A stretch of DNA of 24,558 bases from a virus: UHGV virus genome UHGV-0105381. One strand, given 5' to 3'. Position 1 is the stretch's first letter, and each line of letters begins with the position of its first letter. A model generated the notes under the pieces. That model was given only the letters and a program-made list of their open reading frames with translations. It was not told the origin of the DNA and searched no databases. Both the position numbers and the translations under genes were made by a program. Shown piece by piece: positions 9,758-24,520 of the stretch.

Positions 9758-10651
9758 ATGGACCAGATGGCAGAAAACACACCAGAAGTTGAAATCGAAA
9801 CCGACGCGTCAGAGCAGATTCCTGATGATGTCGAACTGGCTGAAGAAGTCGAAACAGAAGATGGCAGTGAGTCCTCCGGCAATGGTGCAGAGGAAGCTAG
9901 TGAAACTGATGACGACGAATCAGAACAGGAATTCTACTTTGGTGACGAAAAGCTGGATTCGCCAACCAGCGAAGATGGCGCAGAGCATGGACTGGTAAAA
10001 CACCTGCGCAAGACGATTAAAGAGAAAGACCGCGAGCTGAAAGAGCTGATGCGTCAGTCTCAGAAACCCGTCGAGCAGCAGCCGGTAATCACTCTACCAC
10101 CGCGGATGCCAAAACTGGACGATGAGGACATCGGTTTCGATGAAGAAATCTACCAGCAACGCATGGCTAAGTGGGCAGAGGATAACGGCAAGTACCAGCA
10201 ACAGGAGATGGCTCGCAAGCAGAAGGAGCAGGAGCTTCAGGCTGCCTATCAAGAGCGATTATCCAAATATCAGCAACGTGTTAAGGCTCTCAAAGTTCCT
10301 GGCTATCAGGAAGCTGAGCAGGCCGTACTCGAGGAAATCCCCATCGAGACACAAAACGCGATCCTGTTTGAGTCAGAGAAGCCGGAAATCGTTGTTCTGG
10401 CGCTCGGTCGCAACGCTGAACTGCGCAAGCAACTGGCAGAAGCTACAAACCCCGTAGCAATTGGTCGTCTGCTGGAACGTATCGAATCGAAGGCCAGAAT
10501 CATGCCAAAAGCAAAAACCACGGCAGCCACAACCCCGACAGTTAAGGGGAGCAACGGCGCAGTAATCAATAACCTCGACAAACTGAAAGCCAAGGCGCTG
10601 GAAACTGGTGACTGGACGCCGTATTTCGCCGCTAAAAAGGCAAAAAAATAA
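9758..10651 (+). CDS. Scaffolding protein (P22 gp8-like)
   Basis: 297-aa ORF between portal and coat; acidic N-terminus, coiled-coil-rich, basic C-terminal tail; position and size as in P22-like phages. Confidence 0.85.
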   Translation: MDQMAENTPEVEIETDASEQIPDDVELAEEVETEDGSESSGNGAEEASETDDDESEQEFYFGDEKLDSPTSEDGAEHGLVKHLRKTIKEKDRELKELMRQSQKPVEQQPVITLPPRMPKLDDEDIGFDEEIYQQRMAKWAEDNGKYQQQEMARKQKEQELQAAYQERLSKYQQRVKALKVPGYQEAEQAVLEEIPIETQNAILFESEKPEIVVLALGRNAELRKQLAEATNPVAIGRLLERIESKARIMPKAKTTAATTPTVKGSNGAVINNLDKLKAKALETGDWTPYFAAKKAKK

Positions 10652-10669
10652 CCTATCGGAGCATTAAGC

Positions 10670-11923
10670 ATGGCTAACCAATTAGCAAAAGACCTTGAAA
10701 TCATGTTCGAAAACTACGTTGAAGGCTTTGAGGCCGCCTGCGTAGTTTCCCGTAACGCTAAAAAATTCCGTCCCGGTGATACAGCAATGCAGCGAGCAGG
10801 TGATGTTCTGTATCGTCCGCAGCATTACCACATGAACATTGAGGAAGGCCTCGACCTCAGCGGCAAAACGCCAACAGCACTGGTTCAGCGCCTTGTTCCT
10901 TCTGTGTTCAAGGAGCCGAAAAACATTCTGTACACTCTGGATGCGCGTGAAATGCGTGACCCGGAACATAAAACTGAAGCTGGTCGCGCCGCAGGTATGC
11001 GCCTTGCTGCACAGATTGACTCGGACCTGATTTCCATGGTCACGCAGCGTGCTACTAACGTGATCACAATGGCTGACTCAACCACTGGTTCACAGGGCCG
11101 TGATTTGTGGAACTGTGCGGCAGGTATTGATGCCACCATGACGGCGATTGGTGTACCACAGGGTATCAACCGCCGCTCTTTCTGGAACCCCTTCAACTAC
11201 AAAGACCTTGCTGGCGAGCTTGGTCACCGTGCCTATGCTCAGGGCGCAACCCTGACAGCATACGAAAAAGCGCAGATCCCTCCGGTTGCTTCCTTTGATA
11301 GCTACAAGACCGATATTTCTGGTCGATTACCGAAAGGAAGCACTGAATCCTTGACAGTATCAGGCCAACCTGAACACAAGGTTGAAGCGAAAGATTCAAA
11401 TGGTATGCCAGTTGATAACCGACAGGGGACTATTACGGTATCTGCATCTGGCTTGCAGGTTGGTGATGCGTTCACCATTGCCGGTGTGAATTCCGTACAC
11501 CAGATCACAAAAGATACCACCGGTCAACCGCAGGTATTCCGTGTTCTGGCTGTTAGCGGAAATACCGTAACAATTTCTCCAAAGATTCTCCCTGTTGAAA
11601 ATACTGATGTTGCGAGTCGTCCATATGCAAACGTCGATGCCAAACCGGCAGAATCAGCAGCAATCACCATTCTCAACAAGAACGCAGCACCTGCTAACCT
11701 GTTCTGGGCTGATGGTTCTGTTGAGCTTATGTACGGCAAACTGGCGTTCCCGACTGGTCAGGGTCCACAGGTAATGACAGCAACCACCGAGCAGGGCGCT
11801 ACGCTGATCATGTCTTACGCCTTCGACCACATCAAAGGCGTAACCACTGCTCGTTTCACCACTCTGTACGGTTGCTCTGTACTTGTTCCTGAATATACGG
11901 GCATCGTTATTGCCGGGCAGTAA
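10670..11923 (+). CDS. Major coat protein (P22 gp5-like)
   Basis: 417-aa ORF; position, size and conserved stretches (e.g. NLFWADGSVEL) consistent with the P22-type coat protein; followed by a strong terminator. Confidence 0.9.
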   Translation: MANQLAKDLEIMFENYVEGFEAACVVSRNAKKFRPGDTAMQRAGDVLYRPQHYHMNIEEGLDLSGKTPTALVQRLVPSVFKEPKNILYTLDAREMRDPEHKTEAGRAAGMRLAAQIDSDLISMVTQRATNVITMADSTTGSQGRDLWNCAAGIDATMTAIGVPQGINRRSFWNPFNYKDLAGELGHRAYAQGATLTAYEKAQIPPVASFDSYKTDISGRLPKGSTESLTVSGQPEHKVEAKDSNGMPVDNRQGTITVSASGLQVGDAFTIAGVNSVHQITKDTTGQPQVFRVLAVSGNTVTISPKILPVENTDVASRPYANVDAKPAESAAITILNKNAAPANLFWADGSVELMYGKLAFPTGQGPQVMTATTEQGATLIMSYAFDHIKGVTTARFTTLYGCSVLVPEYTGIVIAGQ

Positions 11924-15181: not shown

Positions 15182-15874
15182 ATGTTATATGCATTTAAGC
15201 TGGGCAGAAAACTGCGCGGCGAGGAACCTTATTACCCTGAAAAAGGCGGGAAAGGTGGCAGTTCTGATAAAAGCGCAAAGTATGCAGCAGAAGCTCAGAA
15301 GTATGCCGCAGACCTGCAAAATCAGCAGTGGCAGACGATCATGAAAAACCTTGCTCCGTTCACGCCTCTTGCGGAGCAGTATGTTAACCAGCTTCAGAAC
15401 ATTTCCAGTTTAGAAGGTCAGGGGCAGGCACTTAATCAGTATTACAACTCTCAGCAGTATAAAGACCTTGCAGGTCAGGCTCGTTACCAGAGTCTTGCTG
15501 CTGCGGAGGCGACTGGCGGACTTGGTTCGACAGCTACAAGCAATCAACTGGCCACGATTGCCCCGACTCTCGGTCAGTCGTGGTTGTCGAACCAGATGAG
15601 CAACTACAACAATCTGGCAAACATTGGCCTTGGTGCGCTGCAAGGTCAGGCGAACGCCGGGCAGACATACGCCAACAACATGAGCAGCATTGCGCAGCAA
15701 AGCGCAGCACTTGCCGCTGCTAACGCCAATAAACCATCAGGCCTTCAGACAGCAATTAGCGGTGGCACGTCTGGTGCGATTGCCGGTGCAGGTCTTGCCA
15801 GCCTTTTGGGAACATCAACGCCTTGGGGCGCTGGCATTGGTGCTGGTATCGGATTGCTTGGCTCGTTGTTTTAA
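15182..15874 (+). CDS. Ejection (DNA-transfer) protein, P22 gp7-like
   Basis: 230-aa ORF, syntenic; N-terminus MLYAF.LGRKLRGEEP.YPEKGGKGGS as recalled for gp7-type proteins; Gly/Ala-rich C-terminus. Confidence 0.75.
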   Translation: MLYAFKLGRKLRGEEPYYPEKGGKGGSSDKSAKYAAEAQKYAADLQNQQWQTIMKNLAPFTPLAEQYVNQLQNISSLEGQGQALNQYYNSQQYKDLAGQARYQSLAAAEATGGLGSTATSNQLATIAPTLGQSWLSNQMSNYNNLANIGLGALQGQANAGQTYANNMSSIAQQSAALAAANANKPSGLQTAISGGTSGAIAGAGLASLLGTSTPWGAGIGAGIGLLGSLF

Positions 15875-15883
15875 GGGGTAATA

Positions 15884-17179
15884 ATGGCTACTTGGCAAGG
15901 ATCAAATGGCGGATTGTTGGCTGGTATCGGCGGCGTCAACTCAAACGCTCCGAGCGTAAATGACATCGGCAATACGCTTCAGCTTATCAGGCAGAACAAT
16001 GATATTGAGCGTTCAGGCGCTAACAATGTTGGGCTGACTGCTTTGCAAGGCCTTTCAGGTATTGCAGGAGTGTTTCAGCAGGAAAAGCAGGCTCAGCGGC
16101 AGAAAGAATTTCAGCAGGCGTACGCTAATGCTTATACGTCTGGTGATCGCGGTGCTTTGCGTCAGTTGGCTACTCAATATCCAGACCAGATTGAATCCGT
16201 TCGTAAAGGCATGGGATTCATTGATGAAGACCAGCGCAATTCCATCGGTACCTTAGCGGCTGGCGCACGCCTTGCGTCATCGTCTCCAGAAGCAATGCAA
16301 TCATGGCTGCAAAACAACGCCAAGGAACTGACTCGCGTCGGTGTTGACCCTAATAACGTTGCTCAGATGTATCAGCAGAATCCTTCAGGATTTGGTGAGT
16401 TTGTTGATCACCTTGGAATGGCTGCTCTTGGTCCGATTGATTACTTCAATGTTCAGGACAAGATGGCTGGTCGTGAGATTGACCGAGGCAGGCTGGCAGA
16501 GACAATCCGCAGCAATCAGGCAGGAGAAGCACTAACAGCTCGAGGTCAGGACATCCAGATACGTGGACAGAACATCAGCGCACAGAATGCTGCTCTTTCC
16601 CGAGAAATACAAAGAGCAGAATTACAAGAAAAGGCTCTGGACAGACAGATAGCCAGAGAAAGCAATCAGTTAAAGCTTGAAGAGCTAAAACAGAAACAGG
16701 CAGATGTTCGGCAAAAGGCTGACATAGCCCGCGCTGACAGGCAGGCCGCCGCTCAGGGTGCAGTTGATACGTTCAGCACCGCGCTTGATTCTCTCAACGA
16801 GATAGAGCAAAGCCCCGGCCTTTCAAAAGCAGTAGGAATTCGCTCAGCGTTTCCGACAGTTCCTGGCTCTGATGCGGCTAACTTTGAAGCAAGGCTCGAC
16901 ACCTTTAAAGCTCAAACATTCCTTCCTATGGTGCAGTCCCTGAAGGGTATGGGCGCTCTTTCAGATGCAGAGGGTAAAAAATTATCCGATGCGGTTGGTG
17001 CCCTAAGCCCCAAAATGAGTGAAAAGGCTTTTCGTGACTCTATCGGAAAGATTAGAAATCAGCTTGAAAGCAAGTTGAGCACTGTTAAAAAACAGTTTGA
17101 TTATCAGGAGCCGGTGCAGAATATGCCAGGGCAACAATCTACTACTGGCAGTAACTTTTCTTCGCTATGGGGTGATTAA
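15884..17179 (+). CDS. Ejection (DNA-transfer) protein, P22 gp20-like
   Basis: 431-aa ORF, syntenic; coiled-coil-rich central region. Confidence 0.7.
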   Translation: MATWQGSNGGLLAGIGGVNSNAPSVNDIGNTLQLIRQNNDIERSGANNVGLTALQGLSGIAGVFQQEKQAQRQKEFQQAYANAYTSGDRGALRQLATQYPDQIESVRKGMGFIDEDQRNSIGTLAAGARLASSSPEAMQSWLQNNAKELTRVGVDPNNVAQMYQQNPSGFGEFVDHLGMAALGPIDYFNVQDKMAGREIDRGRLAETIRSNQAGEALTARGQDIQIRGQNISAQNAALSREIQRAELQEKALDRQIARESNQLKLEELKQKQADVRQKADIARADRQAAAQGAVDTFSTALDSLNEIEQSPGLSKAVGIRSAFPTVPGSDAANFEARLDTFKAQTFLPMVQSLKGMGALSDAEGKKLSDAVGALSPKMSEKAFRDSIGKIRNQLESKLSTVKKQFDYQEPVQNMPGQQSTTGSNFSSLWGD

Positions 17180-19176
17180 TGGCTAAAGCATGGAAAGATG
17201 TTATCGCCTCTCCACAGTATCAGGCGTTAGCACCAGAACAAAAAGCGCAGGCTCAGGAGCAATACTTCAATGAAGTCGTTGCCCCGCAAGCCGGAGAAAA
17301 TGCAGAGCAGGCTAAGCAAGCTTTCTATGCTGCCTATCCATTGCCATCTGTGCAGCCAGTGGAGACACAACAACCAGTATCACAGCAACAACCACAGCAA
17401 AGTGGATTTATGTCGGATCTTGGTGAAGCCGTGAAAGAAACTGGTCGCGGACTGGTGCAGGCTGGCGTGAACGTGGCAAACATACCTGCATCAGTTGCCG
17501 ATGCTGTAACAAGCGCGGCGGCTTGGGCTGGCGGTAAACTCGGAATTGGCGATGGGACATATCACCCAGCGCCACGAGTAACAACGCAGGGATTAGAGCA
17601 GGACTTTGGCCTTCAGCAAGGCGCGCTGACTCCACAAACTACAGAGGGCAGGGTATTTGCTGAGGCATTGCCTTACCTCACTCCTGCTGGCATTGAGAGA
17701 GCGGCAACACAGGCACCAACACTCGCTGGTAGAATCGCTCAGGGTGCAACTCGCCTTCTCGCTGAAAACGCAGTCGGGTCACTTGCTGCAAATAGTGCGA
17801 AAGATGATGCGGAAGCACTCGCTACCGATTTAGGCATTGGCGTTCTGGCTGGCGGCGCTATTAACGCTGCCGGACGTGGATTAGGCGCTGCTTATCGTGG
17901 CGTTCGTGGTGCTATTGCACCAGAAGCGCAGCAAGCTATCAGATTTGCAGAGCGTGAAGGAGTGCCTCTGCACACCACAGACCTGTTACAGCCTAGTTCC
18001 CGCGTCGGAAAAATGGCGCAAACGACAGCAGAAAATATCCCCCTGGCTGGCACAAGCGGAATGAGAGCAACGCAACAGGAAGCGAGAAGCCAGTTGGTTC
18101 AGAGATTTGCTGATAAATTCGGTGAGTATGATCCAGCGGTTGTTATTGACAGCCTTAAAGCGAAAACATCAGGAATTCGTCGCGCTGCAGGAAATCGACT
18201 GGAGCAGGTTCAGAATGCTATGGCGGGAATAAACATTCAGCCTGCAAGAGCAATTCAGCAGATTGATACAGAAATATCTAACCTGCAGAAGCTTGGTAAG
18301 GTTGCTGATAACGAGACTATTTCAAAACTTCAGTCCTATCGTGATGAGCTTGTTCGCAATGCTGGTCCTGATGGTCCGGTAAATCTGGATTTGAAGCAAT
18401 TAAGCGATCTGCGCAGCCAGTTCAGAATGGACGTGAAGGGTGAGCGACCAGTGTTACCAAACCGTTCCGATGCTGCCATTCAGCGCGTTTACAAGGCAAT
18501 GACCGACGATATCAATGGTGCCATTGGTCAGAATCTTGGCAACGATACTCTCCGTAAATATCAGCAGGCCAATGCCGTCTACGCTGACGAAGCCGCGAAA
18601 CTAAAGAATACCAGGCTGAAGAATGTTCTCATGAAAGGCGATCTGACGCCGGAAGTTGTCAACAACATGCTATTCAGCAAGAACAAATCGGAAATTAAGA
18701 CGCTGTATAACTCAGTTGGTCGTGTTGGCAGGGCGCAAATGCGCAATGGCATCATTGGAAAGGCGATGGAGAAATCTGGCGGATCCCCTGACCAGTTCCT
18801 TCGGCAGCTTAACATCCTGCAAAACCAGACTGGCATCACATTTAAGGGGCAGGACGCTGCTTATCTGAAAGGATTAAAAAACTACCTGCAATCTACGCAG
18901 CAGGCTGCAAAAGCGGCAGTAACAACACCCACAGGGCAGCAAACTATCCCGTTCATTATTGGGTATGGGACGGCAATGAACCCTGCGACAACTGGCGCAG
19001 CAGTAAGCTACGGACTTCTTACTCGCGCCTATGAGAGCGAGCCATTCAGAAATGCAATGCTCAGAATGGCAAACACCCCACGCGGATCAACAGCGTTTGA
19101 GAAAGCCATGCAGCAGGCACAAAAGGCAATTAACGCTATGACGCAGGGGGCTAAGTCTGATGCGTTGTCAGAATAG
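17179..19176 (+). CDS. Ejection (DNA-transfer) protein, P22 gp16-like
   Basis: 665-aa ORF, syntenic, Ala/Gly-rich; last gene of the contiguous rightward structural operon. Confidence 0.7.
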   Translation: MAKAWKDVIASPQYQALAPEQKAQAQEQYFNEVVAPQAGENAEQAKQAFYAAYPLPSVQPVETQQPVSQQQPQQSGFMSDLGEAVKETGRGLVQAGVNVANIPASVADAVTSAAAWAGGKLGIGDGTYHPAPRVTTQGLEQDFGLQQGALTPQTTEGRVFAEALPYLTPAGIERAATQAPTLAGRIAQGATRLLAENAVGSLAANSAKDDAEALATDLGIGVLAGGAINAAGRGLGAAYRGVRGAIAPEAQQAIRFAEREGVPLHTTDLLQPSSRVGKMAQTTAENIPLAGTSGMRATQQEARSQLVQRFADKFGEYDPAVVIDSLKAKTSGIRRAAGNRLEQVQNAMAGINIQPARAIQQIDTEISNLQKLGKVADNETISKLQSYRDELVRNAGPDGPVNLDLKQLSDLRSQFRMDVKGERPVLPNRSDAAIQRVYKAMTDDINGAIGQNLGNDTLRKYQQANAVYADEAAKLKNTRLKNVLMKGDLTPEVVNNMLFSKNKSEIKTLYNSVGRVGRAQMRNGIIGKAMEKSGGSPDQFLRQLNILQNQTGITFKGQDAAYLKGLKNYLQSTQQAAKAAVTTPTGQQTIPFIIGYGTAMNPATTGAAVSYGLLTRAYESEPFRNAMLRMANTPRGSTAFEKAMQQAQKAINAMTQGAKSDALSE

Positions 19177-19269: not shown

Positions 19270-19755
19270 TTATCTGATGTTACTGCTACTGTTGCATGTG
19301 ACTGTATTTCCAAACCCTGAATTGCAGTTTGTGTAAGTTTCAACTCGTGTTGGATAGGGTTGAGTTATAACAGGCTGTCTCGCTTTTTGCTCGATCGCTT
19401 GCATTGTGTTTACAGCCTGATAATTCAATAAAGCCTGCTGGAATGCTTGGCTTTGCGCTATTTGTTGGGCTTGTTCTTGGCTTTGTAGTTGAACATAAAG
19501 ATTCTGAAGCTCAAGTCTTGCCTGCGCGTCACTTATCTTGCCATCATCGACACCTTGCCCGAGCATCTTCGCAGCAAGGACATATAACTTAGGTGTTGGT
19601 GCTGATGCCATGCGTGAGTCGTTCTTCACGCTAGCATCAAGGCAATTAGCCATATCGCTAAGCTTTGGATAGCGTTGTTCGCAATTTGCCTGATAGTCGC
19701 TAACCTTTGCGCACCCTGCCAGCAGAAGCGGGATAATTAACAGTGATTTTTTCAT
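19270..19755 (-). CDS. Lipoprotein of unknown function (moron in the sieA position)
   Basis: Start at MKKSLLIIPLLLAGC with lipobox LAGC; AAGGAGAG RBS upstream; the ORF-track N-terminal extension is probably not used. The +2 residue is Ala, which by the +2 rule predicts outer-membrane sorting. Confidence 0.7.
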   Translation of the reverse strand: MKKSLLIIPLLLAGCAKVSDYQANCEQRYPKLSDMANCLDASVKNDSRMASAPTPKLYVLAAKMLGQGVDDGKISDAQARLELQNLYVQLQSQEQAQQIAQSQAFQQALLNYQAVNTMQAIEQKARQPVITQPYPTRVETYTNCNSGFGNTVTCNSSSNIR

Positions 19756-19889
19756 ATGATTAACTCTCCTTATCTTTGCCATCATGGCACTGTTGGGTGT
19801 AAATGAGTTATTAACTCAATCGACAATATCTTCACGAAAATACTTTTTATTATTAAGATCTTTCTGATTCTAACAAAACGGAAAGTAAT

Positions 19890-20309
19890 ATGAAGAGGAT
19901 TATCGGCGTCGTTGCTGGCGCTATATTGTTATCTGGGTGCGCAACTATTGTTGGTGATGAAACGCAGCTTGTGCAAGTGAACAGCAATCCTTCTGGCGCG
20001 AGCTTTAAGGTAAAAGATGAATCTGGTGTGATTGTTGCGCAAGGTAAGACTCCACAAGGTGTAACACTCGCCAAGTCAGATGGTAGCTATTTTGGCAAAA
20101 AGAGCTACCAGATCACTATGGAGAAGGATGGGTACGAACCAGTTACCCTGCCAATCAAAGCCAATGCTAATGGTTGGTATATTGGTGGGAACCTTGTGTT
20201 TGGTGGGTTAATTGGTTGGCTTGCTGTAGATCCATTTAATGGTGGGATGTATACCTTGAAGCCTAAAGAGGCAAATGCATCCCTTATACCGTCCACAAAG
20301 CAAGACTAA
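19890..20309 (+). CDS. Lipoprotein with PEGA-like domain (moron in the sieA position)
   Basis: 139-aa ORF; signal peptide with lipobox LSGC; SNPSGASFKV...GKTPQGVTL...YQITMEKDGYEP resembles the PEGA domain pattern; Gly-rich hydrophobic C-terminal segment. Confidence 0.7.
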   Translation: MKRIIGVVAGAILLSGCATIVGDETQLVQVNSNPSGASFKVKDESGVIVAQGKTPQGVTLAKSDGSYFGKKSYQITMEKDGYEPVTLPIKANANGWYIGGNLVFGGLIGWLAVDPFNGGMYTLKPKEANASLIPSTKQD

Positions 20310-20316
20310 TAAATGG

Positions 20317-20340
20317 AACCCACCATCAGGTGGGTTTTTT
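20317..20340 (+). terminator. Rho-independent terminator (AACCCACC-atca-GGTGGGTT + TTTT) between the convergent lipoprotein and mnt genes
   Basis: Perfect 8-bp stem followed by a T run, read from sequence; overlaps the 3' end of mnt on the other strand. Confidence 0.8.
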
Positions 20341-20577
20341 GTACAAATCCTTCAGCGTATCAAACACCATCTTCTTAACAAGTTCAGACTGCTCATCAGC
20401 GATGCGTTCCGCATCGTCTCGATAGCCTGAAATTTTGGATGGCCTTGATACAGCATCAGTCACTATCTGAACTAATTCTGAATTAAGAGAGCGGCCATTG
20501 GATTTGGCTCGCTGTTTTAGTTTTTCCTTTAATTCGTAAGGTAGCCGCAGATTAAATTGCGGGTCATCTCTTCCCAT
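20326..20577 (-). CDS. mnt: Mnt repressor (ribbon-helix-helix, P22 immI-type)
   Basis: 83-aa ORF; DDP.FN.R.P.E..EKLK.RA..NGRS.NSEL.QIV.DA.S.PS...GYR.DAER.ADEQSELVKKMVFDTLKDLYKK matches recalled P22 Mnt almost throughout. Confidence 0.9.
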   Translation of the reverse strand: MGRDDPQFNLRLPYELKEKLKQRAKSNGRSLNSELVQIVTDAVSRPSKISGYRDDAERIADEQSELVKKMVFDTLKDLYKKPT

Positions 20578-20641
20578 TCTTGATGCCTCGCTCTTGTGAG
20601 TGGATCGGCATCTTATTATCTGCTGGTTGCATCCTCAATAA

Positions 20642-20654
20642 GACCACGGTGGTC
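20642..20654. promoter_or_regulatory. Candidate Mnt operator: perfect 13-bp palindrome GACCACGGTGGTC
   Basis: Palindrome read from sequence in the mnt/tailspike divergent intergenic region; the core CCACGGTGG resembles the recalled P22 mnt operator (GTCCACGGTGGAC-like). Confidence 0.55.
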
Positions 20655-20712
20655 GTATTTTTTGATTAATAATGAATCACTGCGGCCATTCCTTGTATCT
20701 GGAGCAAATTAA

Positions 20713-23358
20713 ATGACAGACATTACAGCCAATGTTGTAGTGAGTATGCCTTCGCAACTCTTCACTATGGCTCGTTCTTTTAAAGCCGTAGCCAATGGCA
20801 AAATTTATATCGGTAAAATTGACACTGACCCGGTAAATCCTGAAAACCAGATTCAGGTCTATGTTGAGAACGAAGATGGTTCTCACGTTCCTGTTGCACA
20901 GCCAATCGTCATCAATGCCGCAGGGTATCCAGTATATAACGGACAGATTGCCAAATTCGTTACCGTGCAAGGCCATTCTATGGCTGTTTATGATGCGTAT
21001 GGTGCACAGCAGTTCTATTTTCCTAATGTGCTGAAGTATGACCCGGATCAGTTTAAACAAAAAGTATTATCAAATGATATGCTAAATATGTCTCCTCTTT
21101 ATTTTGGAGCTAAGGGGGATGGGATTAGCGATGATACTGAAGCATTTGTCGCGTTGGAAATGGATATAAAAAATAGGGTTATTGATTTAAGTGGAAGAGC
21201 ATTTTTTGTTACTAAAAGTTTTATTGGAAATAGCTATATAAATGGTTCTTTTATTCGTGATGGCAGTAAACGAATTGCGATTGGTGATCTTAAATTAAGA
21301 GATAAAAGAGAGCCATTGATATTTTCCGGAATGCCAAAAGTATATAACACCAGACACACGTTGCGCAGAACTGAAGGTGCGGGTGGTTTATATGCGGTCA
21401 TTCAGGGGTGTTGTTATGATGAAATTAACGACAAGATTTTTACTTTATCATCTACCACAGCATACGGTTATTGCATTAATGCCTTTGACGTGACGAATTC
21501 TGGTGAACTAGGAAGATACGACAGAACCCGTTCTACTGAACTTGGGCATCAGGGGCTTGGATTGCATCATAATCCTGATGGTACTGTCGTGCTGTGGACA
21601 TCGAAGCCTTATGGAACCGATGCCGCCAATCAATGTATTTCGATGGAAAATATATTGAGTTACACAGGGACAACCAACGGAGTATCTGAAGGTTTTATCA
21701 CCTGGAAGTTGTTCCCCTATGATGGAATGAGCGCAAGCTCTACTCCAACTGTATCAAGTTGTGAAAACTATCTACTTGCCAAGAAAATTTCATCGGATGG
21801 AATTACCTGCACGGTTCGTGTTTTCGACATAGTCAGCATGTGGAATAACAGAGCTCATAAAACTGATTATAGTGATGATTATTTAGTTGAGTTTAGCTAT
21901 CAAAAACCATCACAAGAAGCATTTACCCAATCAATTGCTTGCGATGGGGCATACATTTACATACTTGAGTCACATACGTATGTTGGCATGACTAATTATA
22001 TTTACGTATTTGACTTAACAGGCAGGTTTATTGAGCGAGTAGATATTTCAACTGTTGGTGATGATGAAGCAAAATCTGACAGTACAGGAACTCCTGTTTA
22101 TAAAGAGCCTGAGTCCCTAACAGTAATTAGAACGGAGAGTGGGTATGTTTTAACGCTGGGGATATGCACATATAAAGGAGTTGCTGAGAACGGGAAAAAT
22201 GTATATCTGTTTGATATAGGCAGGTCTGGTTCGGTAGTGCAAAGCAAAGCAAGCCGTTCTGTATCCAGTAATACTGGTCTTCATAGTTCTGGCTCCCCGG
22301 AGTTCAAATATGGAGTAAGGGAGTACAATGATACTTTTCACTGGATAGTTTGGCCAACAAGAAAGGGTATTCAAACTAACCGGGATAACCCTATATTGTT
22401 TCTTGATGGCGGAATTACTGGTGGAATGCAGTTAGCTTCAAACGGCACGGAAGGGATGAGCAACTCATGGGTTTCCCGGCATCAGTCAGACACCGCAGAA
22501 GGACCAAGAGCAATAATGTATAAGTCTCGCTCTGGTGTTGTATCAACTGATAATTTTGGAGCTCTGCAGACAGGGGATGTATTGGGTACTCATGTATGGG
22601 CCGGTGATACAGGTAGTAAGGCTGTGCAATGCGCACACATTAAATGCGTCACAAGAGGTAATCCTTCCGGAGACAATATCCCGGTTGCTTTCTACTTTGG
22701 AACCATGGGAGAGAGTGACGGCTTGCGTGACAGATGGGTATTAACAGAATTAGGTCATTTTCGACCATCAGGTTCAAATCTTTATGATATTGGTACACAG
22801 TCGAATACTGTCAGAAACCTGTATATAAATAATAGCCCCATTGTAACCAGCGACAGAAATTATAAGCAGGATGAAGCTTCATTATCTGATGCAGAACTAC
22901 GGGTTGGAATGGCTATTTACCCGCTGATAAAAAAATTCAGAATGAAGGATGCTGTAAAAGAAAAAGGCTTGTCAGCGCGTGAGCATATCGGTGTAATTGC
23001 GCAAGATATACAATCCATCTTTGAATCTGAGGGGCTTGATGCATTTTCTTATGGGGTTCTTTGCTATGAAGAGTGGGATGATGAGTATGAGAAAGTCTAT
23101 GCAACAAGAAATGTGACCAGAAAAATTTTAATTGATGAAGAGTCTGGTCAGTATGATGAAATCACAGAGGAAGAAGAGTATGAAACTGGTGAAGTAAGGT
23201 TAATTATGGAATCAGGAAGAAAATTATCAGTGCGCTATGACGAGTTAATGTTTCTGGCAATGAGCGCACTATATCATCACCATGAGCAGGATATTGCCAA
23301 TATCACATCAAAGATTAATAATCTGGAAAAATTATTAAAGTTAACACTAAATGGTTGA
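20713..23358 (+). CDS. Mosaic tailspike: P22-type N-terminal head-binding domain, pectate-lyase-like beta-helix receptor-binding domain, C-terminal intramolecular chaperone (peptidase S74-like) domain
   Basis: 881-aa ORF; aa 1-114 ([11 protein letters not shown]...[33 protein letters not shown]...[12 protein letters not shown]...NVLKYDPDQ) match recalled P22 gp9; [14 protein letters not shown] follows; C-terminus has an SDAELR...GVIAQDIQ autoproteolytic chaperone-like region. Nucleotide composition turns AT-rich after about nt 21050. Confidence 0.9.
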
Positions 23359-23379: not shown

Positions 23380-23406
23380 GCCCAGCTACATGCTGGGCAA
23401 TGTTTT
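23380..23406. terminator. Hairpin GCCCAGC-tacat-GCTGGGC followed by AATGTTTT, between the convergent tailspike and glycosyltransferase genes
   Basis: 7-bp perfect stem read from sequence, 22 nt after the tailspike stop; T-rich downstream on the plus strand. Confidence 0.7.
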
Positions 23407-24520
23407 AAATTTCAGCTATAAAACCTTCATAATTATTTTGTAAAAAAGGTTTGATGAACTTACGCTGAGGGGTATAAATCATATCCTGATTTACTAAATC
23501 TGAGCGGATATTGAAAGTGGTTGAGAGCATGTTAAAGAACATCCTTTTCTTTTGCTCGTTGCCACCTGCTTTACCACATACCTTTTCCATCATTTCAAGG
23601 CATATCACCAGCCACGCATTGTAAAGCTTGGCCTTTTCTTCGTTAGTTTTTCCGCAAAAGTAAATCGTGTTAATAACCGAGTTAAGAATGAAGTGTCTAT
23701 CTTCAAGAGGAAATTTTTGCCTTGATAAATGACCATTACCATGGAATGTTAAATGATAATAATCTTTGTCAGCAAGAATAGATATATTGTTTGCTACAGA
23801 TAGAGATTGAACCATAAATATTTTATCTTCAGCTACGGTGATAGCTGGGTTGAAGAGAATGTTATGCTCTTTAAGCATATTTCTTCGGAAGAATTTGAAA
23901 ATAGTTAACGACCGCAAGAGGTGATGCTTGGTTATATCTGCCTTATCTACAATTTTCACCTTGTATGGACGGATAGGCACCTCGCGATTACCATCTGATG
24001 CAATTTTGAAGTAAACAATATCACTATTATTTTTATCAGCAATATGAACCCCTCTCTCAAGAAGAGTTTCGTCAATATAGTCATCGGAATCCATGAAGAA
24101 AATATAACGCCCTTTTGCTGCTTTTATCCCCTCATTTCGCGGGGTTGAAGCGTTACCTGAACCAATTTCTCGGCGAATAATTCTGTAGTTAATATCCGGT
24201 GCTATATTATATTCTATAGCAGCAATGCTTTTGTCACTTGAACAATCATCGACAAAAATAACCTCAAAGCGATCCTTATTAATTGTTTGGTTATTAAGTG
24301 AGTTAATGCATTTAAGAATAAGTTTTTCACGATTATGAACAGGGATAACAACTGACACATCTAATGGGCAAAAATGGTTAATCTCATTAACTACAGTCGT
24401 TATTTTAGTAAAAGCCGCCAACAAAGCTGTTGTTAAATCAGTAGAAGATAAAAGGCTTTCTTTTTTAGTATTAGCTTTTATGTTAAAATAGAACCAATTA
24501 TTACGAGGTACAAAATCCAC
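23405..24520 (-). CDS. Family-2 glycosyltransferase (GT-A fold); 5' end unresolved, reading frame stays open upstream to the window edge
   Basis: VSVVIPVHNREK nucleotide-sugar binding motif and FFMDSDDYID (DxD) motif; AT-rich; minimal ORF starts at GTG 24520 without an RBS, and the frame continues through the tetranucleotide tract with no stop. Confidence 0.85.
   Translation of the reverse strand: MDFVPRNNWFYFNIKANTKKESLLSSTDLTTALLAAFTKITTVVNEINHFCPLDVSVVIPVHNREKLILKCINSLNNQTINKDRFEVIFVDDCSSDKSIAAIEYNIAPDINYRIIRREIGSGNASTPRNEGIKAAKGRYIFFMDSDDYIDETLLERGVHIADKNNSDIVYFKIASDGNREVPIRPYKVKIVDKADITKHHLLRSLTIFKFFRRNMLKEHNILFNPAITVAEDKIFMVQSLSVANNISILADKDYYHLTFHGNGHLSRQKFPLEDRHFILNSVINTIYFCGKTNEEKAKLYNAWLVICLEMMEKVCGKAGGNEQKKRMFFNMLSTTFNIRSDLVNQDMIYTPQRKFIKPFLQNNYEGFIAEI

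What the first reader, a model, noticed from the sequence alone, without database searches (positions are those of the whole stretch)
19270..20309. Two divergent lipoprotein morons replace sieA between the ejection genes and mnt
Where P22 has sieA there are two divergently transcribed genes, each with a signal peptide and lipobox (LAGC, LSGC; Ala at +2 predicts outer-membrane sorting). One carries a PEGA-like motif and a Gly-rich hydrophobic tail. Lipoprotein-mediated superinfection exclusion is established (T5 Llp, Cor), so these are candidates for exclusion or host-surface modification.
Basis: partly seen in the sequence, partly recalled or inferred. Interest (0 to 1): 0.55.

Follow-up and report, generated by a model that had tools for sequence, protein, structure and literature searches.

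The report
Two prophage lipoprotein genes at sieA slot
A P22-like prophage of E. coli carries two unrelated, independently acquired genes for outer-membrane lipoproteins where phage P22 keeps its superinfection-exclusion gene sieA; both are real and switched on in the lysogen, and one is a good but untested candidate for a new way of blocking phage DNA entry.

Summary
ORF-A (19270..19755, minus strand, 161 aa) and ORF-B (19890..20309, plus strand, 139 aa) are divergent genes with conserved lipoboxes. They lie between the gp16-like ejection gene and mnt of an E. coli Lederbergvirus prophage about 97% identical to phage Gally here.

Both are real genes (dN/dS 0.066 and 0.011). Published LF82 RNA-seq shows their Gally orthologues are the most expressed prophage genes after the c2 repressor, while the flanking ejection genes stay at background.

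They are not a two-gene system, because they assort independently.
- **ORF-A (phrog_6067)** was found only in the sieA slot of P22-like prophages in every full-length homologue examined. It often sits in an mnt–orf59a–X arrangement with X in place of sieA. It is not homologous to SieA and has no recognisable fold relative.
- **ORF-B (phrog_6823)** belongs to a large, unnamed, very conserved proteobacterial lipoprotein family. It has a PEGA/transthyretin-like sandwich plus an invariant Gly/aromatic loop. Phages have captured it at several classical moron slots.

Exclusion is plausible for ORF-A and weaker for ORF-B; neither is tested. The region is the known "ant moron" and both genes are catalogued as hypothetical. 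This is a moderately interesting lead, not a new kind of system.

The parts
19270..19755 (-). ORF-A: 161-aa lipoprotein precursor (phrog_6067). Signal peptide and lipobox LLAG|C15; helical domain about 18-100 with conserved C25/C38; Gln-rich helix to about 125; disordered Pro-rich linker; conserved C-terminal Cys loop C144...C154.
   Evidence: dN/dS 0.066.
19756..19889 (.). 134-bp AT-rich divergent intergenic region, presumed to hold both promoters. Minus-strand sigma-70-like sites: TTGTTA-16-AATAAT and TTCATA-16-TAGAAT. Weaker plus-strand candidate: TTCACG(19831)-17-TAAGAT(19859).
   Evidence: Searches give consensus matches only. RNA-seq of Gally shows both genes transcribed while flanking late genes are silent. 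No start site was mapped.
19890..20309 (+). ORF-B: 139-aa lipoprotein precursor (phrog_6823). Lipobox LLSG|C17; PEGA/transthyretin-like beta-sandwich 25-93; invariant Gly/aromatic hydrophobic loop 94-120; closing beta-hairpin 121-131.
   Evidence: dN/dS 0.011.
20317..20336 (.). GC-rich hairpin AACCCACC-ATCA-GGTGGGTT with T-runs on both sides. Bidirectional intrinsic terminator shared by convergent ORF-B and mnt.
   Evidence: The same element is annotated as a Rho-independent terminator in epsilon34.
20326..20577 (-). mnt (Arc/Mnt-family repressor), context gene. No arc or ant follows it in this window.
   Evidence: Arc 1e-21, Repressor_Mnt 1e-18.
17179..19176 (+). gp16-position ejection protein, left border of the slot. 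Preceded by gp20-like (15884..17179) and gp7-like (15182..15874) genes.
20713..23358 (+). Tailspike, right border of the 'ant moron' slot.
   Evidence: Head_binding 9e-67; Peptidase_S74.

Best explanation
These are two unrelated, independently acquired, prophage-expressed cargo genes (morons). They sit in the hyper-variable 'ant moron'/immI slot between the last ejection-protein gene and the tailspike gene of a P22-like prophage. [quoted passage not shown]

ORF-A is specific to P22-like phages and occupies the sieA position. My committed reading is that it is a non-homologous functional replacement of SieA. Anchored in the outer membrane, it would reach into the periplasm with its helical head, long Gln-rich helix and C-terminal disulfide loop. 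There it would interfere with assembly or function of the gp7/gp20/gp16 DNA-ejection conduit of incoming P22-like phages.

ORF-B is a phage-captured copy of a widespread stand-alone proteobacterial envelope lipoprotein. It is a beta-sandwich held flat on the membrane by a short tether, with an invariant Gly/aromatic loop that probably dips into the membrane or binds a conserved envelope partner. It most likely alters an outer-membrane property that benefits the lysogen, such as envelope robustness or masking of a conserved outer-membrane component. Any anti-phage effect would be secondary.

Shown here or in published data: gene reality, lipobox conservation, position, independent assortment, and expression in the lysogen.

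Inferred: localisation, target and phenotype.
For: Identity and context:
- The window matches E. coli GMF054 at 100%. It matches phages Gally and vB_EcoP-720R6 at about 97% over the 1.6-kb region tested.
- gp7, gp20 and gp16-position genes lie to the left; mnt and the tailspike lie to the right.

Slot equivalence:
- The P22 map is 16 / sieA(-) / orf59a(-) / mnt(-).
- ORF-A homologues in Serratia, Morganella, Yersinia, Proteus phage Brookers and Salmonella VSe13 always lie between the gp16-position gene and the tailspike, convergent on gene 16.
- In 80 IMG/VR loci I counted three arrangements. 42 have mnt then ORF-A on one strand with nothing recognised between them. 18 have mnt, a P22 orf59a homologue, then ORF-A. 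Only 16 have ORF-B as neighbour.
- The pan-SieA motif FxRYPxEAxxFNK is absent from all 173 loci carrying ORF-A or ORF-B, and present in the P22 control.
- Only 22 of 66 P22-like phages carry sieA (PMC10883804).
- Other occupants of the same slot are also small secreted or membrane proteins.

Expression (PMC9928086 Table S1):
- GALLYPH_13 and GALLYPH_14 give log2(fpkm+5) of 7.9-10.3 and 9.4-11.0 outside overnight LB. The adjacent ejection genes give 2.3-4.2 and c2 gives 10.5-12.

Selection:
- dN/dS is 0.066 for ORF-A and 0.011 for ORF-B.

ORF-B family:
- At least 4586 homologues were found, in 303 species from Enterobacterales to zeta- and deltaproteobacteria at 50-60% identity.
- There is no conserved neighbour gene, and only 6 of 80 loci are next to a lambda-J-like gene.
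- In siphophage prophages the gene sits between the tail chaperone and tape measure genes, or between I and J. These are the HK97 gp15 and gp22/23 moron slots.
Against: - No functional test exists for either protein.
- That slot also holds genes unrelated to exclusion in other phages, such as orf59a, hkcB/hkcC and ant.
- Strong purifying selection, above all on ORF-B, is not what an arms race with fast-evolving ejection proteins would predict.
- Both genes are expressed more strongly in the B1/B6 and macrophage samples than in overnight LB. That also fits a host-adaptation role.
- The authors of the Gally study scored the prophage as having no morons in overnight LB, where the two genes are 4.5x and 3.3x background against a 5x cut-off.
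- The ORF-A model is only moderately confident (pLDDT 63.9).
Confidence: 0.45

Rival explanations
1. Both are host-fitness or virulence conversion factors of the Bor/TraT/Lom kind. They would give serum, macrophage or envelope-stress resistance and have no role in phage exclusion.
For: - Both Gally orthologues are up in macrophages against LB: log2FC 2.55 and 3.84, q<1e-26. They are also high in the B1/B6 samples.
- The ORF-B family is mainly chromosomal and widespread in non-phage contexts.
- Purifying selection is very strong.
- A shorter relative of ORF-A, lacking the C-terminal Cys loop, persists in what looks like a decayed prophage end.
Against: - ORF-A was found only next to the ejection genes of P22-like phages, in place of sieA, in every full-length homologue examined. 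A general fitness factor has no reason to stay there.
- There is no similarity to Bor, TraT or Lom families in Pfam.
- The LB sample is stationary phase, so the fold changes may reflect growth phase rather than host cues.
Confidence: 0.3
2. One or both act as classical receptor-masking exclusion lipoproteins of the Cor/Llp type. They would bind a conserved outer-membrane protein from the periplasmic side and block adsorption or irreversible binding of other phages. A secondary benefit would be to stop progeny being wasted on cell debris.
For: - The architecture matches Cor and Llp: a small outer-membrane lipoprotein, with conserved cysteine pairs in ORF-A.
- The extreme conservation of ORF-B fits a conserved host target.
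- ORF-B lies on the late-operon strand, so it would also be read late in infection (inference).
- ORF-B homologues occur in lambdoid prophages whose relatives use outer-membrane protein receptors.
Against: - The only matches to Cor models cover the signal peptide, residues 1-20 or 1-30, and are far below cut-off.
- P22-like phages adsorb through O-antigen and the tailspike.
- Most ORF-B family members lie in genomes with no phage context.
Confidence: 0.15
3. The two divergent genes form one two-component system, for example a complex or a toxin/immunity-like pair.
For: They are adjacent and divergently arranged around a shared 134-bp control region. They are co-regulated in the Gally RNA-seq.
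Against: - Only 16 of 80 ORF-A loci carry ORF-B, and 17 of 80 ORF-B loci carry ORF-A.
- epsilon34 has ORF-B with a different partner, and VSe13 has ORF-A with a different partner.
- The mosaic junctions fall 10-17 bp upstream of each start codon.
- In complete E. coli genomes there are 186 with ORF-A, 124 with ORF-B and only 25 with both adjacent.
Confidence: 0.03

Closest known systems
P22 SieA (superinfection exclusion, inner-membrane protein; Leavitt et al. 2024, PMC10883804)
   Same: ORF-A has the same genomic slot, strand and size (161 against 164 aa). It lies convergent on gene 16, and in relatives it is downstream of mnt with or without orf59a. Both are prophage-expressed. ORF-A and SieA never co-occurred in the 173 loci examined.
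   Different: There is no sequence relationship (hhalign probability 0.2%). SieA is a polytopic inner-membrane protein with a cytoplasmic FxRYPxEAxxFNK motif. ORF-A has a lipobox, no transmembrane segment after the signal peptide, and is predicted to be anchored in the outer membrane.
Cor (phi80/N15/HK022) and T5 Llp: outer-membrane lipoproteins that exclude phages by inactivating FhuA
   Same: Both are small phage-encoded lipoproteins with a type II signal peptide and no Asp at +2. ORF-A also has conserved cysteine pairs. This is the established precedent for lipoprotein-mediated exclusion in E. coli (my own knowledge).
   Different: HMM matches to Cor are confined to the signal peptide and are far below cut-off (phrog_1119 E=0.003 over residues 1-20; NF047972 11.7 bits against 31). 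No fold match was found. The carrier phage is not known to use FhuA.
HK97 gp15 (moron-encoded exclusion protein) and the HK97 gp22/gp23 morons
   Same: ORF-B homologues in lambdoid and HK97-like prophages occupy the same two slots: tail chaperone / tape measure, and I / J.
   Different: gp15 is annotated at 189 nt, about 62 aa. It is an inner-membrane protein unrelated in sequence (my own knowledge). The shared feature is the slot, not the family.
Lambda Bor/Iss, F TraT and lambda Lom: prophage- or plasmid-encoded outer-membrane (lipo)proteins giving serum resistance
   Same: These are also morons that encode outer-membrane proteins expressed in the lysogen. The Gally paper notes that Bor of a co-resident prophage is induced in DMEM.
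   Different: No Pfam, NCBIfam or PHROG similarity was found.
S. thermophilus TP-J34 Ltp (lipoprotein that blocks DNA injection by targeting the tape measure protein)
   Same: This is a precedent for a membrane-anchored lipoprotein that acts on the DNA-delivery machinery rather than the receptor. That is the mechanism I propose for ORF-A. The work is cited in PMC10883804.
   Different: It comes from a Gram-positive host, has an unrelated sequence and fold, and acts on the siphophage tape measure protein.
PEGA domain (PF08308) / transthyretin-like beta-sandwich; SlyB/Pcp-type glycine-zipper lipoproteins (recalled analogy only)
   Same: The ORF-B core is a prealbumin-like sandwich. PGAP names it 'peptidase associated/transthyretin-like domain-containing'. 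Like SlyB, it combines a lipid anchor, a beta-sandwich and a Gly-rich hydrophobic element.
   Different: It is below the Pfam PEGA threshold. The domain order differs from SlyB, and no glycine-zipper Pfam family was hit. The SlyB comparison comes from memory and was not tested.

Membership tests
Bacterial lipoprotein (signal peptidase II substrate) | N-terminal basic region, hydrophobic core and lipobox [LVI][ASTVI][GAS]C within about 35 residues, with the Cys conserved in homologues | tested here: met
   ORF-A is MKKSLLIIPLLLAG|C15 and ORF-B is MKRIIGVVAGAILLSG|C17. A lipobox is found in 38/38, 49/53 and 49/50 aligned homologues, and the Cys columns are invariant.
Bacterial lipoprotein (signal peptidase II substrate) | Actual lipidation and cleavage (globomycin sensitivity, palmitate labelling) and outer-membrane localisation | not testable with these tools
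   Only the +2 rule applies. Ala is at +2 in both, and Asp never occurs there in the families.
Moron (autonomous cargo gene inside a phage operon) | Present or absent between conserved flanking genes when related phages are compared | tested here: met
   P22, epsilon34, VSe13, Brookers, Gally and 160 IMG/VR loci carry different gene sets between gene 16 and the tailspike. The region was described as the 'ant moron' in PMC2629481.
Moron (autonomous cargo gene inside a phage operon) | Own promoter and terminator, and transcription in the lysogen independent of the surrounding operon | tested here: met
   A terminator lies at 20317-20336. Promoter matches are weak. Published RNA-seq of the 98-100% identical Gally orthologues shows them 16- to over 100-fold above the adjacent ejection genes outside overnight LB. 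Start sites are not mapped.
SieA family (types A/B/C) | Sequence homology, including the conserved FxRYPxEAxxFNK motif | tested here: not met
   hhalign probability is 0.2%. The motif is absent from the window and from all 173 related loci, and present in the P22 control.
SieA family (types A/B/C) | Polytopic inner-membrane topology | tested here: not met
   ORF-A has no hydrophobic segment after the signal peptide (maximum Kyte-Doolittle 19-residue mean 0.47). The model is a soluble helical domain.
SieA family (types A/B/C) | Blocks DNA injection by P22-like phages | not testable with these tools
   This needs plating, K+ efflux or DNA-entry assays.
Cor / Llp exclusion lipoproteins | Match to the family model beyond the signal peptide | tested here: not met
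   The phrog_1119 hit covers residues 1-20 only. NF047972 scores 11.7 bits against a 31-bit cut-off. ORF-A has no hit at all.
PEGA domain (PF08308) | Score at or above Pfam's gathering threshold | tested here: not met
   17.6 bits against 20.8, E=0.0037, residues 28-93.
PEGA domain (PF08308) | Prealbumin/transthyretin-like beta-sandwich fold | tested here: met
YceK/YidQ lipoproteins (DUF1375; name given by JGI to some ORF-B homologues) | Match to PF07119 | tested here: not met
   No Pfam hit even at E<=10 for the whole protein or its C-terminal part. The JGI label appears.
Known anti-phage defence systems (PADLOC-DB v2) | Match to any model | tested here: not met
   No families matched either protein at E<=1.

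The most novel reading that the evidence does not exclude
ORF-A would define a second, non-homologous class of P22-type DNA-ejection blocker. It would be anchored in the outer membrane and act in the periplasm, and would fill the sieA slot in many of the two-thirds of P22-like phages that lack sieA. Its wider superfamily comprises 252 representative clusters of small lipoproteins with two conserved cysteine pairs, at least some of them in phage-like contexts. That superfamily could be a general family of anti-injection lipoproteins.

ORF-B would be the first handle on a large, unnamed, extremely conserved proteobacterial outer-membrane lipoprotein family. Its invariant Gly/aromatic loop would insert into or organise the outer membrane.
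Probability: 0.3. Interest if true: 0.65.

Novelty: new member of a known kind. Interest (0 to 1): 0.42.

Why it matters
SieA is the only characterised blocker of the P22 ejection-protein conduit, and most P22-like phages lack it. A non-homologous lipoprotein in the same operon position gives a direct, cheap experiment on how that conduit can be attacked from the outer-membrane side. It could also provide a probe for where gp7, gp20 and gp16 assemble.

The LF82/Gally data show both genes are among the most expressed prophage genes in an adherent-invasive E. coli inside macrophages. The published analysis nevertheless concluded that Gally carries no morons, so these genes have been overlooked in a clinically studied strain.

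ORF-B also flags a very large, highly constrained lipoprotein family with no Pfam model and no known function.

Tried and rejected
- **Two-gene system:** rejected on independent assortment.
- **ORF-B 'tail' as a C-terminal transmembrane helix:** rejected. It is an internal loop followed by a confident hairpin, with Kyte-Doolittle mean 1.3.
- **Homology of ORF-A to SieA:** none.
- **Homology to Cor, Llp, Bor, TraT or YceK:** none beyond the signal peptide.
- **PADLOC:** nothing.
- **Sequence search of PDB with both profiles:** nothing meaningful.
- **Contexts of remote ORF-A relatives:**
  - Pattern scans failed for the divergent alignments.
  - Two single remote proteins found nothing in viral contigs.
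  - Three contexts were obtained. One lies behind a 4839-aa MuF_C polyvalent protein gene. One is in a DnaB/LPD37 phage-like contig. One is in a chromosomal relic. This is too few to generalise.
- **Literature:** no paper mentions these genes by locus tag, and there is no paper on PEGA lipoproteins in phages.
- **RNA-seq condition labels:** conditions B1 and B6 are not defined in the legend I could read. I take them to be bacteria in macrophage culture medium, from the main text.
Full report
**1. The observation**

The window is part of a P22-like (Lederbergvirus) prophage of E. coli.
- The 1.6-kb stretch around the finding is 100% identical to E. coli GMF054. It is about 97% identical to phage Gally (the active prophage of AIEC strain LF82) and to vB_EcoP-720R6.
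- To the left lie gp7-like, gp20-like (Inj_translocase) and gp16-position ejection genes.
- To the right lie mnt (Arc plus Repressor_Mnt domains) and a tailspike with a P22 head-binding domain.

Between them are two divergent ORFs.

ORF-A is on the minus strand.
- The mechanical ORF runs 19270..19785.
- The ATG at 19755 has AAGGAG 8-9 nt upstream, while the longer start has no Shine-Dalgarno sequence.
- All aligned homologues start at MKK. I therefore take 19270..19755, giving 161 aa.

ORF-B is 19890..20309 on the plus strand, 139 aa.

Both open with a basic N-terminal region, a hydrophobic core and a lipobox (LLAG|C15 and LLSG|C17), with Ala at +2.
- The lipobox is present in 38/38 and 49/53 aligned family members.
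- The Cys columns are invariant, and Asp never occurs at +2.

By the E. coli +2 rule (established knowledge), both should be passed to the outer membrane by the Lol system.

Two descriptive points need correcting.
- The PEGA match is below Pfam's threshold (17.6 against 20.8 bits), although the fold is of that kind.
- The Gly-rich hydrophobic stretch is not a tail. It is an internal loop (about residues 94-120) followed by a confidently modelled hairpin that returns to the sandwich.

**2. Are they genes, and are they expressed?**

Among distinct alleles in IMG/VR prophages, dN/dS against the window allele is 0.066 for ORF-A and 0.011 for ORF-B. Several ORF-B pairs have 23-26 synonymous and no non-synonymous differences.

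The Gally orthologues are GALLYPH_13 (98.1% identical to ORF-A) and GALLYPH_14 (100% identical to ORF-B). Re-analysed RNA-seq of the LF82 lysogen is in Tables S1 and S4 of PMC9928086.

| Sample | GALLYPH_13 | GALLYPH_14 | Comparison |
|---|---|---|---|
| Overnight LB (normalised counts) | 70 | 51 | prophage median 15.6; authors' moron cut-off 78 |
| Other four conditions (log2(fpkm+5)) | 7.9-10.3 | 9.4-11.0 | c2 repressor 10.5-12.0; three adjacent ejection genes 2.3-4.2 |

- The two genes fell just under the cut-off in overnight LB, and the paper concludes that Gally has no morons.
- In every condition they are the second and third most expressed Gally genes.
- They are therefore transcribed autonomously from the prophage.
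- Their GC content is 0.42-0.44 against about 0.50 in the ejection genes.
- A GC-rich hairpin with T-runs on both sides separates ORF-B from convergent mnt. It is annotated as a terminator in epsilon34.
- Promoter-like hexamers in the 134-bp intergenic region are only consensus matches.

**3. They are two modules, not one system**

- epsilon34 carries ORF-B (its gene 15, 97.8% identical) next to an hkcB-like gene instead of ORF-A.
- VSe13 carries ORF-A next to a short unrelated gene.
- The nucleotide matches to these two phages end 10 and 17 bp upstream of the respective start codons. The intergenic region is therefore specific to this pairing.
- Of 80 IMG/VR loci with ORF-A, 16 have ORF-B. 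Of 80 with ORF-B, 17 have ORF-A.
- Among 5426 complete E. coli genomes, 186 have the ORF-A allele, 124 the ORF-B allele and 25 the adjacent pair.

**4. ORF-A**

Position:
- Every full-length homologue whose context I examined lies between the gp16-position gene and the tailspike of a P22-like prophage, convergent on gene 16. This holds in E. coli, Salmonella, Serratia, Morganella, Yersinia and Proteus. Remote or shortened relatives are listed under 'Wider family'.
- P22 has 16(+), sieA(-), orf59a(-), mnt(-).
- In Yersinia prophages and Proteus phage Brookers, ORF-A follows mnt on the same strand after 15-18 bp.
- In the IMG/VR set, 42 loci show mnt then ORF-A with nothing recognised between. 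A further 18 show mnt, a P22 orf59a homologue, then ORF-A. The latter is the P22 arrangement with ORF-A in place of sieA.
- The motif shared by all three SieA types is absent from all 173 loci that carry ORF-A or ORF-B, and is found in the P22 control.
- Only 22 of 66 sequenced P22-like phages have sieA.
- Other occupants of the same slot are an hkcB-like protein with an N-terminal transmembrane segment, a 122-aa protein with a signal-peptide-like start, and a 51-aa transmembrane protein. The slot therefore consistently collects small envelope proteins.

Sequence and structure:
- ORF-A is not homologous to SieA (hhalign probability 0.2%).
- It has no Pfam, NCBIfam or PADLOC match. Its PHROG family is of unknown function.
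- The model (pLDDT 63.9 overall, about 80-87 for residues 20-100) shows a small helical domain, a long Gln-rich helix to about residue 125 and a disordered tail.

Wider family:
- An exhaustive profile search finds 252 representative clusters of 125-135-aa lipoproteins.
- They share Q22, C25, C38 and A79, plus a C-terminal Cys loop separated from the head by a linker of variable length.
- None has a Pfam family or a name.
- Three remote contexts were obtained, which is too few to generalise:
  - one convergent behind a 4839-aa MuF_C polyvalent protein gene;
  - one in a DnaB/LPD37 phage-like contig;
  - one shorter relative, lacking the Cys loop, beside a lone holE-like gene between dsbB and minCDE, probably a prophage relic.

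**5. ORF-B**

Structure:
- Only about seven residues separate the lipidated Cys from the first strand.
- The most conserved part of the whole family is N94-G-W-Y-I-G-G-N-x-x-F-G-G-L-I-G-W-L-x-V-D-P-F-N-G-G-M-Y-T-L-x-P125.
- This segment is modelled with low confidence and is moderately hydrophobic (Kyte-Doolittle mean 1.3).
- I infer an interfacial or re-entrant membrane element, or a partner or oligomer interface, rather than a transmembrane helix.

Family size and spread:
- At least 4586 proteins match the profile.
- Pattern matches occur in 303 species, from Enterobacterales and Pasteurellaceae to Halomonadaceae and to beta-, zeta- and deltaproteobacteria. Identity is 50-60% over the full length.
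- There is no conserved neighbour gene. Only 6 of 80 species loci lie next to a lambda-J-like gene. Within Photorhabdus the gene is syntenic near a gene I read as murJ. In Xenorhabdus it has an ordinary chromosomal context.

Capture by phages:
- In P22-like prophages it is always between gene 16 and mnt on the late-operon strand.
- In lambdoid E. coli and Proteus prophages it lies between the tail chaperone and the tape measure gene.
- In other lambdoid prophages it lies between I and J.
- The last two are the positions of the HK97 gp15 and gp22/23 morons. gp15 is a known exclusion protein (Cumby et al. 2012, cited).

ORF-B is therefore a stand-alone envelope lipoprotein repeatedly captured by unrelated temperate phages.

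**6. Mechanism**

I commit to the following.

ORF-A is a functional replacement of SieA acting from the other side of the periplasm.
- It would be an outer-membrane-anchored protein whose helical head, extended helix and disulfide loop interfere with the gp7/gp20/gp16 conduit of incoming P22-like phages. This is inference from position, phage specificity, compartment and expression.
- I put the probability of exclusion by ORF-A at about 0.45.

ORF-B more probably changes an outer-membrane property useful to the lysogen, or masks a conserved envelope component, than targets a particular phage. This rests on its mostly chromosomal family, its extreme constraint and its promiscuous capture.
- I put host-envelope function at about 0.35 and receptor-masking exclusion at about 0.25.

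The main rival for both is a Bor/TraT-like host-fitness role. It is favoured by their higher expression in the B1/B6 and macrophage samples than in overnight LB. Because that LB sample is stationary phase, the contrast may simply reflect growth phase.

**7. Comparison and novelty**

- The variable region is the 'ant moron' described in 2008, where epsilon34 gene 15 was already noted as matching bacterial genes of unknown function.
- Both proteins are in PHROGs and RefSeq as hypothetical proteins.
- Lipoprotein-mediated exclusion is an established kind (Cor, Llp, Ltp), but neither protein belongs to those families.
- What this analysis adds:
  - the operon-level substitution of ORF-A for sieA;
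  - the independence of the two modules;
  - the expression evidence that contradicts the 'no morons in Gally' conclusion;
  - the size and conservation of the ORF-B family.
- Verdict: real, ordinary in kind, uncharacterised in function. It is a moderately interesting and easily testable lead.

Noticed in passing
window 20713..23358 (+): The tailspike joins a P22 head-binding N-terminus to a C-terminal Peptidase_S74 'chaperone of endosialidase' domain (aa 713-774). The receptor-binding part is therefore of the auto-cleaving intramolecular-chaperone type rather than the P22 endorhamnosidase type.
   Followed up: partly
window 23405..24520 (-): A family-2 glycosyltransferase (Glycos_transf_2, 1e-31) lies just right of the tailspike on the opposite strand. 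It is probably the gtrB-like part of an O-antigen conversion module, a second prophage-encoded way of changing the cell surface.
   Followed up: partly
window 20326..20712: mnt is an orphan. No arc or ant follows it, and the tailspike gene starts 135 bp away. In LF82/Gally, mnt is induced 40-fold in macrophages, yet its deletion had no phenotype (PMC9928086). What Mnt represses here is unknown.
   Followed up: no
window 17179..19176 (+): The gp16-position ejection protein (665 aa) has no Pfam hit at all, not even Phage_P22_gp16. PGAP labels copies variously as 'P22-gp16 family', 'DNA transfer protein' or 'lytic transglycosylase domain-containing'.
   Followed up: no
L004, L006, L007 and L008, about 10260..11430: Lambdoid E. 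coli prophages that carry the ORF-B homologue between the tail chaperone and tape measure genes also carry a porin gene (Porin_1/Porin_4). It is inserted between the gpM-like and gpL-like minor tail genes and is a second envelope moron in the tail operon.
   Followed up: no
L275 6001..6411: A 136-aa relative of ORF-A (44% identical, lacking the C-terminal Cys loop) sits beside a lone holE-like DNA_pol3_theta gene, between dsbB and minCDE. It looks like the retained end of a decayed P22-like prophage.
   Followed up: no
L191 212..589: A remote ORF-A relative lies immediately convergent behind a 4839-aa polyvalent protein gene (ddrB-ParB, Eco57I, helicase, MuF_C). That is a protein type thought to be injected with phage DNA. 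The arrangement echoes ORF-A behind gene 16, but this is a single case.
   Followed up: no
L109-type members of alignment A1 (e.g. P0116, P0118, P0120): Many environmental gammaproteobacterial ORF-B homologues (about 168 aa) carry an extra conserved C-terminal segment, '...SIVLLxDVPxxLRxxM...', that is absent from the phage copies.
   Followed up: no
PMC9928086 Table S1 (Gally = window orthologue): GALLYPH_17, the small hypothetical gene between the tailspike and attR, and the tailspike itself are also induced in macrophages (log2FC 4.9 and 4.4). The whole right end of the prophage, not only the two lipoprotein genes, responds to that condition.
   Followed up: no
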